A stretch of DNA of 32,223 bases. Source: a virus. The notes under the pieces are model-generated. The model did no database searches and was not told the DNA's origin. It saw only the letters and a list, made by a program, of their open reading frames with translations. The stretch is from UHGV virus genome UHGV-1520234. One strand, 5' to 3'. Positions 22,459 to 26,305 of the stretch are shown here, piece after piece (positions within the stretch are counted from its first letter, which is position 1; every line of letters begins with the position of its first letter). Position numbers and translations under genes: made by a program.

Positions 22459-23001
22459 TTAATTAGTGAGTCCGGGGATTACGGTTTGCCCGTGCTGTTC
22501 AAGGCGTTCAATTCTCGCCAGTAGCTGAGGCTTCTTAATTTTTCCCCAGCGATTAAGCAGGCGCCCTGACATGCTGGCAACATCCTTCTCTTTCATGTAC
22601 TCCAGCATTACGGCATTTCTCTCTTCTTCAAATTGACGATGACCAACCTGAAGCATGGCGTACATCCAGTTAAATGCGTTGATGTAAGCAATTTTGATAC
22701 GCATTGCTTCTTTTTTGGTGTAGGACATAACCAAAAGCATCAACCCATCCTTGCGGAGACGGTAGAATTTTTGCGGCTTACCATTCTGTAACTCATTGTT
22801 TTTATAGCAAAGCTCAAAGTTGAGCTTTGTATCAAACTCAGGAGGGCAAGCTTCTATGGTTCGTTCAATGTCACGAACCACGTTCTTCGGCAGCTTTCCA
22901 AATGCTTTTGCCACCATAAAAGAATCTGTAACCGGATCGTTGTTTGCTACAAAAATTAGGTCTCTGAAATCTATATCGTTAACAACGGTTGGGTAGTTCA
23001 T
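22459..23001 (-). CDS. rha: Rha-family phage regulatory protein
   Basis: 180-aa ORF with an ATG start; N-terminal region (VAKAFGKLPKNVVRDIERTIEACPPEF...NFELCYKNN...YRLRKDGLMLLVMSYTKKEAMRIKIAYINAFN) matches the Rha-domain pattern. Located between lysis genes and terminase, as rha is in P22. Confidence 0.55.
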   Translation of the reverse strand: MNYPTVVNDIDFRDLIFVANNDPVTDSFMVAKAFGKLPKNVVRDIERTIEACPPEFDTKLNFELCYKNNELQNGKPQKFYRLRKDGLMLLVMSYTKKEAMRIKIAYINAFNWMYAMLQVGHRQFEEERNAVMLEYMKEKDVASMSGRLLNRWGKIKKPQLLARIERLEQHGQTVIPGLTN

Positions 23002-23347: not shown

Positions 23348-23806
23348 TCATCGAAGGCATTGCGTCCTGATGTATTCCTGCAGGTAGTTAACCTGCGCGG
23401 TTATCCTGTCGATTCCACTTCGGAGACGGTAATAATTGAGTTCAGCATCTGCTGTAAGTCTTGGGCTTTCTCCATCGCCCATGCTGCTGGCTCCGGTCGT
23501 TGACTTTGCACAGGTGGCGGCGACTTGCAGGCGCTTACGCCCAGCAGAAACATCAGCACGAAGACTTTCGATAGTCGCGTTAGCATCAGCAAGCTCCTTT
23601 GTGTATCTGGCGTCGAGTTCTGCTACATCACGCTGACGCATCTGCATGTCAGTAATTGCCACGTTCGCCAGCTTCAGTTCTCTGGCATTTTTGTCGCGCT
23701 GGGCTTTGTAGGTAATGGCGTTATCACGGTAATGATTAACAGCCCATGACAGGCAGACGATGATGCAGATAACCAGAGCGGAGATAATCGCGGTGACTCT
23801 GCTCAT
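23348..23806 (-). CDS. Rz: Rz i-spanin
   Basis: 152-aa ORF with an ATG start and 4-nt overlap with R; the N-terminal ~95 aa are near-identical to lambda Rz as I recall it, while the C-terminal third diverges. Confidence 0.85.
23401..23586 (-). CDS. Rz1: Rz1 o-spanin lipoprotein, embedded out of frame within Rz
   Basis: ORF in the +1 frame wholly inside Rz; first ATG at 23586 gives [20 protein letters not shown] with lipobox VSAC followed by a proline-rich segment, the typical Rz1 architecture. Confidence 0.7.
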
Positions 23807-24279
23807 ACCTCAATCTCTCTGACCGTTCCGCCAGCTTCTTTGAATTTTGCAATCAGGCTGTCAGCCTTATGCTCGAACTGACCATAACCAGCGCCCGGAA
23901 GAGAAGCCCAGATATTGCTACAACGGTCGATAGCCTGACGGATATCACCGCGATCAATCATCGGCAAAGCGCCACGCTCTTTAATCTGTTGCAATGCCAC
24001 AGCGTCCTGGCTTTTCGGAGAGAAGTCTTTCAGGCCAAGCTGCTTACGATAGGCATCCCACCAACGGGAAAGAAGCTGGTAACGTCCGGCAGCTGTTGAT
24101 TTGAGTTTGGGGTTTAGCGTGACAAGTTTGCGAGGGTGATCGGAGTAATCAGTGAATAGCTCTCCGCCAACAATGACGTCATAACCATGATTTCTGGTTT
24201 TCTGTCGTCCGTTATCAGTTCCCTCTGACCACGCCAGCATATCGAGGAACGCCTTACGTTGATTATTGATTTCCACCAT
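23803..24279 (-). CDS. R: Endolysin R (lytic transglycosylase, lambda R-like)
   Basis: 158-aa ORF with an ATG start, overlapping S by 17 nt as in lambda; sequence essentially matches lambda R as recalled. Confidence 0.9.
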
Positions 24280-24586
24280 CTTCTACTCCGGCTTTTTTAG
24301 CAGCGAAGCGTTTGATAAGCGAACCAATCGAGTCAGTACCGATGTAGCCGATGAACACGCTCGTTATATAAGCGAGATTGCTACTTAGTCCTGCGAAGTC
24401 GAGAAGGTCACGAATGAACCAGGCGATAATGGCGCACATCGTTGCGTCGATTACTGTTTTTGTAAACGCACCGCCATTATATCTGCCGCGAAGGTACGCC
24501 ATTGCAAACGCAAGGATTGCCCCGATGCCTTGTTCCTTTGCCGCGAGAATGGCGGCTAACAGGTCATGTTTTTCTGGCATCTTCAT
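24263..24586 (-). CDS. S: Holin S with dual start (S107 antiholin / S105 holin)
   Basis: 107-aa ORF beginning [10 protein letters not shown]; ATG codons at 24586 and 24580 reproduce the lambda Met1-Lys2-Met3 dual-start motif; near-identical to lambda S. Confidence 0.9.
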
Positions 24587-24705
24587 GTCTTACCCCCAAT
24601 AAGGGGATTTGCTCTATTTAATTAGGAATAAGGTCGATTACTGATAGAACAAATCCAGGCTACTGTGTTTAGTAATCAGATTTGTTCGTGACCGATATGC
24701 ACGGG

Positions 24706-24741
24706 CAAAACGGCATGAGGTTGTTAGCGCAACCTCTTGCC
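24706..24741 (-). other. Stem-loop upstream of S
   Basis: Imperfect inverted repeat ggcatgaggttg / caacctcttgcc with a U-run following on the minus strand; lies in the stretch that matches the lambda sequence just upstream of S. Confidence 0.4.
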
Positions 24742-24884
24742 ACCCGCTTTCACGAAGCCAGCCATTGAGCTGGTTTTCTTTTATGCAAAGCACACCGCAC
24801 CGTAGCCACAGCGGATAAGGTGATTATTTTTGTCTGTCTGGTATTTGGTTTGATGTGCTTTCAGAAAGGCCGTGCTTAAAACGC

Positions 24885-24912
24885 AAAAAGCCCCGAGCTA
24901 TTAACTCAGGGC
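24885..24912 (-). terminator. tR'-like intrinsic terminator ending a short PR' leader
   Basis: Minus-strand transcript GCCCUGAG-UUAAUAG-CUCGGGGC followed by UUUUUG; about 60 nt downstream of the predicted PR' start. Confidence 0.55.
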
Positions 24913-24948
24913 TTTATTTAACGAGTGCATTTATCCATCGTTGAGTCA

Positions 24949-24977
24949 AATTTACCCAATTTTATTCAATAAGTCAA
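24949..24977 (-). promoter_or_regulatory. Late promoter PR' with qut region
   Basis: Minus strand reads TTGACTTATTGAATAAAATTGGGTAAATTTGACTCAACGATGG: -35 TTGACT (24977..24972), 17-bp spacer, -10 TAAATT (24954..24949). This matches lambda PR' as recalled; sequence then diverges from lambda downstream of about +10. Confidence 0.7.
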
Positions 24978-25019
24978 TATCATGCCGTTAATATGTTGCC
25001 ATCCGTGGCAATCATGCTG

Positions 25020-25643
25020 CTAACGTGTGACCGCGTTCAAAATGTTGTCTGCGATTGACTCTTCTTTGTGGCATTGCACCACCAGAGCGTCATACAGCGG
25101 CTTAACAGTGCGTGACCAGGTGGGTTGGGTGAGGTTTGGGATTAGCATCGTTACAGCGCGATATGCGGCGCTTGCTGGCATTCTTGAATAGCCGACACCT
25201 TTGCATCTTCCGCACTCTTTCTCAACAACTCTCCCCCACTGCTCTGTTTTGGCTATATCAACCGCACGGCCTGTACCGTGGCAATCTCTGCATCTTGCGC
25301 CCGGCGTCGCGGCACTACGGCAATAATCCGCATAAGCGAATGTTGCGAGCACTTGCAGTACCTTTGCCTTAGTATTTCCTTCAAGCTTTGCAACGCCACG
25401 GTATTTCCCCGATACCTTGTGTGCAAATTGCATCAGATAGTTGATAGCCTTTTGTTTGTCGTTCTGGCTGAGTTCATGCTTACCGCAGAATGCAGCCATT
25501 CCGAATCCGGCTTGTGATTGCGCCATCCCCATAGCAGCCATCACATCAGTACCGGAAAGAGAGTCAGAAGCCGTAGCCCGTGGTGAGTCGCTCATCATCG
25601 GGCTTTTTGGCGAATGAAATTTAGCTACGCTTTCGAGTCTCAC
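25020..25643 (-). CDS. Q: Late antiterminator Q (lambda Q-like)
   Basis: 207-aa ORF, essentially the lambda Q sequence as recalled; the start codon here is GTG, overlapping the ninI stop (GTGA). Confidence 0.9.
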
Positions 25644-26305
25644 GCGCCTTCTCCCTGTACCTGAATCAATGTGAGATTTCCGCAGAACACTGCGCCGGTA
25701 TCGATATACATCTGGTTGGCAAATTTGAGTGGTTTCACTGCTGGCGTGTGACCAAAGATGAACGTGTCCGCGCCTTTAATTTCTTTCACGATCCCGATTT
25801 GTGAGTTGCTGATTCGTTCGCGGTTCCAGATTACCTGCTGATGATCAACTGGCTTTCCAAATTCGTATTCTTCACAAGGATAATCGGCGTGGCAGATGAC
25901 ATGTTTTTTACCTTTGCTCACCAGTTCGATGATTAACGGAAGTTCTTCTGCTTTATGGGCAAGAGCTTTAGCCAGAATTTCTTTGTCGTAATCGAGATTA
26001 AAGAACCAGCCACCGCCATTAAGCAGCCAGTGATTAACGTTTCCACGCTCTGATAAGCCATCAATCATCATTTGCTCATGGTTTCCACGTACAGCTCTGA
26101 ACCAGGGGAATGTGATTAATTCCATACATTCGACGTTCTCTGTACCGCGATCAACCAAATCGCCAACCGAGATAAGCAGGTCTTTTTTGGTGTCGAATCC
26201 TATCGTCTCCAGTTTTTTCATCATGTTCGTGTAGCATCCGTGCAGATCGCCAACTACCCAAACATTTCGGTATTTGCTGCCATCAATTCTTTCGTAATAG
26301 CGCAT
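25640..26305 (-). CDS. ninI: Ser/Thr protein phosphatase (lambda NinI-like)
   Basis: Track ORF begins at a TTG at 26380; the homologous start is ATG at 26305 ([25 protein letters not shown]...) with GGAG upstream, giving 221 aa. Metallophosphatase motifs GDLHG, GDLVDRG and GNHE are present. Confidence 0.85.

What the first reader, a model, noticed from the sequence alone, without database searches (positions are those of the whole stretch)
24880..24980. PR'/qut-like late promoter with an unusually close tR'-like terminator (about 60-nt leader)
The promoter matches lambda PR' through about +10, but the transcribed region then diverges and an intrinsic terminator (24885-24912) follows about 60 nt downstream, against the ~194-nt 6S RNA of lambda. 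This implies a lambda-type Q acting on a rearranged leader and a much shorter constitutive late leader RNA.
Basis: partly seen in the sequence, partly recalled or inferred. Interest (0 to 1): 0.35.

Follow-up and report, generated by a model that had tools for sequence, protein, structure and literature searches.

The report
P22-type short late-gene leader and terminator
This is the late-gene switch of a lambda-like prophage (always-on promoter, Q-protein loading site, and a terminator about 58 bases downstream); the short version is real, but it is the arrangement already annotated in phage P22 and shared by HK97, HK022 and hundreds of E. coli prophages, so it is ordinary.

Summary
On the minus strand, just after an intact lambda-type Q gene (25020-25643), lies a promoter identical to lambda PR' (-35 at 24977-24972, -10 at 24954-24949). 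By homology +1 is 24942. The initial transcribed sequence equals lambda through +8 and stays similar to +23. A strong intrinsic terminator follows (stem 24915-24887, U5 to 24885), which predicts a leader RNA of about 58 nt against lambda's 194-nt 6S RNA.

It is neither unusual nor new. The P22 RefSeq record annotates the same promoter, qut, +1 and "t late or tR'", giving a 59-nt leader. Phage Emek's record annotates the same terminator. The whole Q-S intergenic region is 95-99% identical to HK544, HK140, HK022, HK97, the mEp phages and Sf101.

Of 119 viral contigs with this qut core, 65 carry the short leader and 54 the lambda-type. The window's first 75 transcribed bases match the commonest variant exactly. 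About 6% of complete E. coli genomes carry the cassette.

Compared with lambda, a 405-nt block (6S body, tR', LPR2) is swapped for a 162-nt cassette. Verdict: already known, low interest.

The parts
25020..25643 (-). Q antiterminator gene, lambda family, 207 aa, GTG start
   Evidence: Listed as an ORF. Matches Pfam PF03589 'Antiterm' at E = 1.3e-57. Differs from lambda Q only at L135Q and in the start codon; identical to HK544 Q apart from the start.
24949..24977 (-). PR' late promoter: -35 TTGACT (24977-24972), 17-bp spacer holding the Q-binding element (24971-24955), -10 TAAATT (24954-24949)
   Evidence: Found by the consensus scan. 29/29 identical to lambda PR'. The same stretch is annotated as promoter and qut in HK544 and P22.
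24934..24942 (-). +1 (24942), sigma-dependent pause element AACGAT (+1..+6), and discriminator-like GGA (+7..+9; lambda has GGG)
   Evidence: +1 set by homology with lambda 44587 and with P22's annotated 5' nucleotide. Element definitions come from PMC9388147 and PMC5001585. +1..+8 is invariant in all 47 distinct P22-type leaders.
24920..24933 (-). +10..+23 of the transcript, holding the predicted pause position (+16 = 24927, C as in lambda); last stretch with lambda similarity
   Evidence: Alignment A1 and blastn block lambda -136..+23 = window -136..+23. That a pause occurs here is inferred, not shown.
24885..24915 (-). tR'-type intrinsic terminator: stem 24915-24887 (G+C core 24912-24905 / 24897-24890) with U5 tract 24889-24885; a second U4 follows at 24881-24878
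   Evidence: Terminator scan reports 13 pairs, 6 of them G-C. Fold is -19.1 kcal/mol, z = -5.2. The homologous site is annotated 't late or tR'' in P22 and 'rho-independent terminator' in Emek. The stem is conserved while the loop varies between P22 and the window.
24758..24919 (-). 162-nt P22/HK97-type leader cassette (+24..+185) that replaces lambda +24..+428 (6S body, tR', LPR2)
   Evidence: blastn block map and alignment A1. The lambda 6S and LPR2 probe sequences are absent from the whole window.
24587..24757 (-). Lambda-homologous segment upstream of S (98% to lambda 45015-45185), including a strong hairpin at 24741-24712
   Evidence: blastn. Hairpin folds at -22.6 kcal/mol, z = -4.0.
23348..24586 (-). 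First late genes: holin S (24263-24586), endolysin R-like (23803-24279), Rz (23348-23806)
   Evidence: ORFs listed. Pfam PF05106 and PF03245 match. Homologous genes are annotated in HK544, HK022 and HK97.

Best explanation
This is the late-gene regulatory cassette of a lambdoid prophage, in its P22/HK97-type short-leader form. RNA polymerase starts constitutively at PR' (+1 = 24942). Sigma-70 re-binds the -10-like AACGAT at +1..+6 and the complex pauses near +16. Without Q, the polymerase resumes and terminates at the intrinsic terminator, releasing a leader RNA of about 58 nt. When Q has been made from the early right operon, it binds the QBE in the promoter spacer, loads onto the paused complex, and makes it resistant to this and later terminators. 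S, R, Rz and the roughly 24 kb of virion genes downstream are then transcribed. Shown here: the sequence identities, the terminator structure, the gene order, and the homology to annotated cassettes in working phages. Inferred: the start site, the pause position, the termination efficiency and the Q-dependent read-through in this particular element.
For: - Q is intact and differs from lambda Q at one internal residue; it matches PF03589.
- The promoter, the QBE spacer and +1..+8 are identical to lambda.
- The terminator is canonical: 13-bp stem, U5, -19.1 kcal/mol, z = -5.2.
- P22 RefSeq annotates the homologous promoter, qut, +1 and 't late or tR'; antiterminated by gene 23 protein', giving a 59-nt leader. 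Emek's record annotates the terminator too.
- The window differs from P22 over +1..+58 only in the hairpin loop.
- The full intergenic region is 95-99% identical to the plaque-forming phages HK544, HK140, HK022, HK97, the mEp phages and Sf101.
- +1..+58 is nearly invariant in 47 distinct leaders (0-2% differing per position), while +59..+185 varies at about 15% per position.
- The G.U pair in the stem becomes a C.A mismatch on the other strand, which fits function on the minus-strand RNA (read directly from the sequence).
- Lambda Q and P22 gp23 are interchangeable (PMC8022706).
- P22 makes a short antitermination-regulated RNA (PMC7547250).
- Q's nozzle is threaded by the RNA at 15-16 nt (PMC9388147), which is well before the hairpin's 5' arm at +28 is transcribed.
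Against: - Nothing here is experimental for this element. The start site, pause and termination are inferred by homology.
- The pause determinants are not fully lambda-like. The discriminator-like +7..+9 is GGA rather than GGG, and +17 is A rather than G. Comparable G/C-to-A changes in phage 82 shortened the pause about 2-fold each (PMC5001585). The pause may therefore be weaker or shifted.
- There is almost no compensatory covariation in the stem, because the sequences are too similar. Structural support rests on thermodynamics and conservation.
- Q has a GTG start codon, which might lower its expression.
Confidence: 0.9

Rival explanations
1. Besides being an attenuator by-product, the ~58-nt leader is a functional trans-acting small RNA in lysogens. 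It would be an analogue of StxS from Stx phages, or of the Hfq-bound lambda 6S RNA, acting on host or phage mRNAs.
For: - The RNA should be made constitutively from PR' in lysogens.
- It ends in a terminator hairpin with a U-tail preceded by an A/U-rich single strand, as many Hfq-dependent sRNAs do.
- +9..+28 is nearly invariant among 47 distinct leaders although lambda tolerates a different sequence there.
- There are precedents: StxS (PMC7547250) and the Hfq-bound lambda 6S and LPR2 (bioRxiv 10.1101/2024.10.31.621285).
Against: - The leader has no excess complementarity to any transcript in this window; 13 of 30 shuffles did as well.
- No Rfam family matches.
- The U-tail has only 5 U.
- The invariance of +9..+28 may simply reflect recent common descent or requirements for Q loading.
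- Host targets could not be tested here.
Confidence: 0.12
2. The short leader is a recent deletion or decay product of a lambda-type leader in a defective prophage, and no longer regulates anything.
For: The window lacks 405 nt that lambda has at this position. Q has a GTG rather than an ATG start codon.
Against: - The replacing 162 nt are not a subset of lambda sequence; they are a distinct cassette.
- The same cassette is present in viable phages: P22, HK97, HK022, HK544, the mEp phages and Sf101.
- It is the commoner form among viral contigs, 65 against 54.
- Q, S, R, Rz and the downstream ORFs are intact.
Confidence: 0.02
3. The hairpin mainly stops leftward (plus-strand) transcription, or acts as an RNA-stability or processing element, rather than terminating PR' transcripts.
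For: On the plus strand the inverted repeat is also followed by a T-rich run, TTTATTTA. A separate plus-strand terminator-like hairpin lies nearby at 24754-24777.
Against: - All sizeable genes in the window are on the minus strand, so there is nothing obvious to insulate.
- The stem's G.U pair becomes a C.A mismatch in a plus-strand RNA (read directly from the sequence).
- The scan reports the terminator only on the minus strand.
- P22's annotation assigns it to the late promoter.
Confidence: 0.03

Closest known systems
Phage P22 late control region (P late/PR', qut, t late/tR', gene 23) and its copies in HK97, HK022, HK544, HK140, mEp phages, Sf101 and Emek
   Same: - Same order: Q, promoter, qut, terminator, holin.
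- +1..+58 differs from P22 only in the hairpin loop (one indel and two substitutions). P22's leader is annotated as 59 nt.
- The whole Q-S intergenic region is 95-99% identical to the E. coli phages.
- The first 75 transcribed bases are identical to the commonest variant among viral contigs.
   Different: - The window's promoter spacer (QBE) is the lambda version, TATTGAATAAAATTGGG. P22, HK97 and HK544 have TTTTGAATAAAGTTGGG. The lambda-QBE plus short-leader combination is itself found in 10 of 119 contigs.
- Q starts with GTG.
- The lysis genes are lambda/HK97-type rather than P22-type.
Phage lambda PR'-qut-6S RNA-tR' region
   Same: - Q protein 205 of 206 compared residues identical.
- Promoter, QBE and -10-like pause element identical.
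- The homology block runs from -136 to +23, and another 98% block runs from 171 nt upstream of S into S.
- Same regulatory logic.
   Different: - The leader is about 58 nt rather than 194 nt.
- Lambda +24..+428 (6S body, the compound tR' structure, orf-64, the LPR2 sRNA) is absent and replaced by an unrelated 162 nt.
- The distance from PR' to S is 355 nt against 598 nt.
- +7..+9 is GGA rather than GGG.
StxS / Stx-phage PR'-tR' leader (Q933-type phages) and the short late RNAs of phages 21, 82 and phi80
   Same: A constitutive late promoter followed closely by an intrinsic terminator gives a short RNA in lysogens, and Q antiterminates it (PMC7547250).
   Different: - These phages have different Q families and different qut architecture.
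- StxS is a 74-nt piece processed from a 258-nt leader, with shown Hfq binding and targets.
- No sRNA function is known or indicated for the P22-type leader.
- The window was not compared directly with the StxS sequence; the Rfam scan matched no family.

Membership tests
Lambda-type (Q-lambda family) Q-dependent late regulatory cassette | Q gene of the Q-lambda family (PF03589) directly upstream of the late promoter | tested here: met
   PF03589 at E = 1.3e-57. 207 aa, with one internal difference from lambda Q. The stop codon lies 42 nt upstream of the -35 hexamer.
Lambda-type (Q-lambda family) Q-dependent late regulatory cassette | Sigma-70 promoter PR' with the Q-binding element in the -35/-10 spacer | tested here: met
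   The 29-bp promoter, including the 17-bp spacer, is identical to lambda. The QBE definition comes from PMC9388147. Binding itself was not tested.
Lambda-type (Q-lambda family) Q-dependent late regulatory cassette | -10-like sigma-dependent pause element in the initial transcribed region (+1..+6 AACGAT) | tested here: met
   Identical to lambda and invariant in all 47 distinct related leaders.
Lambda-type (Q-lambda family) Q-dependent late regulatory cassette | Pause-position determinants as in lambda (G/C-rich +7..+9, elemental pause at +16/+17) | tested here: inconclusive
   +7..+9 is GGA against GGG. C16 is kept and G17 is replaced by A. The expectation comes from PMC5001585. All P22/HK97-type leaders share this, so it evidently works, but the pause site is unmapped.
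Lambda-type (Q-lambda family) Q-dependent late regulatory cassette | Intrinsic terminator between the promoter and the late genes | tested here: met
   13-pair stem plus U5 at 24915-24885(-). Fold is -19.1 kcal/mol, z = -5.2.
Lambda-type (Q-lambda family) Q-dependent late regulatory cassette | Lysis and virion genes co-oriented downstream | tested here: met
   S, R and Rz. All ORFs of at least 200 aa from 24586 down to 771 are on the minus strand.
Lambda-type (Q-lambda family) Q-dependent late regulatory cassette | Q-dependent read-through and a short terminated RNA in the absence of Q | not testable with these tools
   This needs transcription assays. Supporting literature exists for P22 and lambda only.
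P22/HK97-type short late leader (t late) | Sequence homology of +1..~+60, including the terminator, to the annotated P22 region | tested here: met
   Only loop differences from P22. Identical to HK544, HK97 and Emek over the terminator, apart from one substitution in Emek at +20. An exact 75-nt match to 16 viral contigs.
Lambda 6S RNA | A ~194-nt transcript homologous to lambda 44587-44780 | tested here: not met
   Only +1..+23 is shared. The 6S body, including the 6S probe sequence, is absent from the whole window.
Any curated Rfam RNA family | Match at or above the family's gathering score | tested here: not met
   No matches in the whole window on either strand.

The most novel reading that the evidence does not exclude
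The nearly invariant ~58-nt PR' leader of P22/HK97-type prophages, present in about 6% of complete E. coli genomes, is a constitutively expressed regulatory small RNA in lysogens. It would be a functional replacement for the Hfq-bound 6S and LPR2 RNAs that lambda carries at the same position. The two alternative leader cassettes behind one and the same Q/qut would then be exchangeable 'sRNA morons'.
Probability: 0.1. Interest if true: 0.5.

Novelty: already known. Interest (0 to 1): 0.1.

Why it matters
It matters little as a discovery. The short PR'-tR' interval is the annotated P22 arrangement and is shared by classical phages (HK97, HK022) and by many prophages.

The useful by-product is a clear picture of two alternative leader cassettes behind the same lambda-type Q and qut. 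The lambda type is 194 nt and carries the 6S and LPR2 RNAs. The P22 type is about 58 nt and lacks both. They occur at similar frequency and recombine freely with both QBE variants.

This shows that the lambda 6S body and LPR2 are dispensable for Q-dependent late control. It also gives natural comparison strains for anyone testing recently proposed sRNA roles of lambda 6S and LPR2.

Tried and rejected
- Rfam gathering scan of the whole window found no family. The tRNA scan found none, so there are no leader tRNAs of the kind some P22-like or Stx phages carry.
- I looked for compensatory covariation in the terminator stem among 64 related leaders. The sequences are too similar. The variants were one G-to-A change turning G.U into A-U, a few single disruptive changes, and loop variants. 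Covariation therefore cannot be used as evidence.
- I tested whether the leader's unstructured 5' 30 nt pairs unusually well with any minus-strand transcript of the window, which would suggest an IsrK- or StxS-like mechanism. The best duplex was -21.3 kcal/mol, and 13 of 30 shuffles did as well. Rejected for phage targets; host targets were not testable.
- I tried to read the primary papers on the late regions of P22 and phage 21 (PMC207295, PMC94795, PMC142878). None is held. The experimental basis for the P22 short RNA is therefore second-hand, through PMC7547250.
- The genome-contig scan for the P22-type leader gave only 2 hits, because each species has one representative. It is uninformative for distribution, so I used the E. 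coli complete-genome collection instead.
- My fold of lambda tR' used too short an excerpt and is meaningless (fourth sequence). It is not used.
- The deletion or decay reading was rejected because the replacing 162 nt are not derived from lambda and occur in viable phages.

Full report
**What is in the sequence.** The genes around the finding run on the minus strand. Reading that strand, the order is:

- a 207-codon ORF at 25020-25643;
- a sigma-70-type promoter, TTGACT-17 bp-TAAATT, at 24977-24949, the only promoter-like site the scan found in 24300-25700;
- a terminator-like hairpin at 24915-24887, followed by UUUUUGCGUUUU;
- about 300 nt of non-coding sequence;
- three ORFs at 24263-24586, 23803-24279 and 23348-23806.

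Pfam identifies the upstream ORF as a lambda-family antiterminator Q (PF03589, E = 1.3e-57). Two of the downstream ORFs are a lambda-S-type holin (PF05106) and Rz (PF03245). The 158-aa ORF between them corresponds to the genes annotated as endolysin in HK544, HK022 and HK97. Q differs from lambda Q only at L135Q and in having a GTG instead of an ATG start codon.

**Checking the observation.** The promoter, including its 17-bp spacer, is identical to lambda PR'. If +1 is taken six bases after the -10 hexamer, the lambda equivalent is 44587. That gives exactly 194 nt to the end of lambda tR', which is the known 6S RNA length, so +1 in the window is 24942.

The transcribed sequence is identical to lambda through +8. 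It has four substitutions at +9, +11, +15 and +17, and loses all similarity after +23.

The hairpin is a 13-pair stem (6 G-C pairs) with a U5 tail. It folds at -19.1 kcal/mol, z = -5.2, with none of 200 shuffles as stable. The 68-nt leader as a whole has z = -4.45. From +1 to the last U of the U5 tract (24885) is 58 nt.

**What it is.** A megablast of the Q-S intergenic region against GenBank phages gave 179 records. In 68 of them the match covers at least 80% of the query. The region is 95-99% identical over its full length to HK544, HK140, ECP1, mEp213, mEp043, HK542, HK106, mEpX1, mEp234, Gally, HK022, Sf101, Emek and HK97.

The depositors of HK544 annotated the promoter and qut. Emek's depositors annotated qut and a 'rho-independent terminator' at the homologous position.

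The RefSeq record of phage P22 is the most explicit. It annotates:

- 'P late or P R'' at 37852-37880;
- a lambda-like qut at 37871-37900;
- the late RNA 5' nucleotide at 37887;
- 't late or t R'; antiterminated by gene 23 protein action' at 37917-37945.

That is a 59-nt leader. In the seven-way alignment, the window differs from P22 over +1..+58 only in the hairpin loop (TTAATAG against TTTAACCG), and both stem arms are unchanged. The finding is therefore the P22-type late leader.

**Relation to lambda.** blastn defines two blocks:

| Lambda | Window | Identity |
|---|---|---|
| -136..+23 | -136..+23 | 96.9% |
| +429..+663 | +186..+420 | 98.3% |

Between these blocks, 405 nt of lambda are replaced by an unrelated 162-nt cassette. 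The lost lambda segment holds the rest of 6S, tR', orf-64 and what follows them. The replacing cassette begins just before the terminator.

A 2024 preprint reports that lambda 6S RNA and a ~63-nt RNA called LPR2 are Hfq-bound. Its LPR2 northern probe maps to lambda 44816-44850 (+230) and its 6S probe to 44657-44691. Neither sequence occurs anywhere in the window. This is a cassette exchange between conserved flanks, not a rearrangement or a deletion.

- Only two kinds of sequence follow the core: the P22/HK97 type in 65 contigs and the lambda type in 54.
- The window's first 75 transcribed bases are identical to the commonest variant, found in 16 contigs.
- The window's particular combination, a lambda-identical promoter and QBE with the short leader, is found in 10 contigs.
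- Both QBE variants occur with both leader types, as expected for lambdoid mosaics.
- Some contigs switch to lambda-like sequence immediately after the terminator's T-tract, so the terminator end is a module boundary.

In complete E. coli genomes, the 141-bp promoter-leader-terminator matches at 80% coverage or more in 331 of 5,426 genomes. It is 100% identical in six of the eight listed chromosomes. PGAP annotates nothing there.

Among 47 distinct P22-type leaders, +1..+58 is almost invariant, with 0-2% of sequences differing per position. +59..+185 differs at about 15% per position.

**Mechanism.** The parts required by the current model of Q-lambda action are a promoter, a 13-bp QBE contacted by a Q monomer, a -10-like sigma-dependent pause element, a terminator and late genes (PMC9388147). 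All are present, and apart from the terminator and late genes they are identical to lambda.

The RNA threads the Q nozzle once it is about 15-16 nt long. The 5' arm of the terminator hairpin starts at +28 and release would occur near +58. A Q-loaded polymerase is therefore fully assembled before the terminator is transcribed. This last step is inference.

Lambda Q and P22 gp23 'can substitute for one another' (PMC8022706), so a lambda-type Q does act on this short leader. Sy et al. state that short antitermination-regulated RNAs are made from the late promoters of 21, phi80, 82 and P22, citing Roberts et al. 1976 for P22 (PMC7547250).

The one place where the cassette departs from lambda's functional elements is the pause region. 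The discriminator-like triplet at +7..+9 is GGA instead of GGG, and +17 is A instead of G. In phage 82, single G/C-to-A changes in the equivalent triplet reduced the pause half-life about 2-fold (PMC5001585). The pause may thus be somewhat weaker or displaced in P22-type leaders. That has not been mapped in any source I could read.

**Rivals.**

- *Regulatory sRNA.* A second role of the 58-nt RNA as an sRNA (like StxS, or lambda 6S) cannot be excluded, and it is the most novel reading. However, its unstructured part has no unusual complementarity to transcripts of this window (13 of 30 shuffles did as well). No Rfam family matches, and the tail has only five U.
- *Decay of a defective prophage.* This is contradicted by the cassette's presence in viable phages.
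- *Plus-strand function of the hairpin.* This is unlikely. All sizeable genes are on the minus strand, and the stem's G.U pair would be a C.A mismatch in a plus-strand RNA.

**Verdict.** The feature is already known and annotated (P22 t late/tR'), and it is at least as common as the lambda arrangement. Interest is low.

Noticed in passing
window 25641-25643 (-): The Q start codon is GTG where lambda, HK544, HK97, HK022 and Emek have ATG. The xTGA overlap with the stop of the upstream ninI-like phosphatase ORF is kept. This could lower Q translation and delay late gene expression.
   Followed up: partly
window 24706-24741 (-): A second strong hairpin (GGCAAGAGGTT...AACCTCATGCC, then GUUUUG) lies about 125-155 nt upstream of S, in the block shared with lambda. 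It folds at -22.6 kcal/mol, z = -4.0. Lambda has a G-C pair and P22 an A-U pair where the window has an A.A mismatch. It may be one of lambda's downstream tandem late terminators or an RNase III site; that suggestion is from memory and was not checked.
   Followed up: partly
window 24754-24777 (+): A terminator-like hairpin on the plus strand (GAAGCCAGCC...GCTGGTTTT, then CTTTTATG), antisense to the late leader. It folds at -11.9 kcal/mol, z = -3.7. No plus-strand gene is nearby, and its role is unknown.
   Followed up: no
window 24758-24919 (-) versus lambda 44610-45014: The window lacks the region encoding the lambda 6S body and the recently described Hfq-bound sRNA LPR2; the probe maps to lambda 44816-44850. 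Phages with the P22-type leader are natural 6S/LPR2-minus relatives with the same Q and qut.
   Followed up: yes
window 1-22000 and 22459-23001 (-): The prophage is a mosaic. Its lambdoid replication, nin, Q and lysis region (Sf101/mEp043-like, 97-98% identical) is joined to contractile-tail structural genes (vB_EcoM-611R5-like at 95.6%, SEN34-like at 81%). A Rha-family ORF (PF09669 plus PF10549) follows Rz, at the position of rha in P22.
   Followed up: partly
L126 2899-2929 (contig JAEZIN010000021.1): An exact match to the P22-type leader lies in a 10.4-kb contig of a MAG labelled 'Bacillota bacterium'. It is most likely a mis-binned enterobacterial phage contig.
   Followed up: no
viral contigs L007-L125, region just after the terminator T-tract: Several contigs carry the P22-type terminator but continue with lambda-like sequence right after the T-tract (e.g. 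...GGGGCTTTTTGCGTTTGCACAACAGGT, compared with lambda TTTTTTATATCTGCACAACAGGT). This marks a recombination joint at the terminator end.
   Followed up: partly
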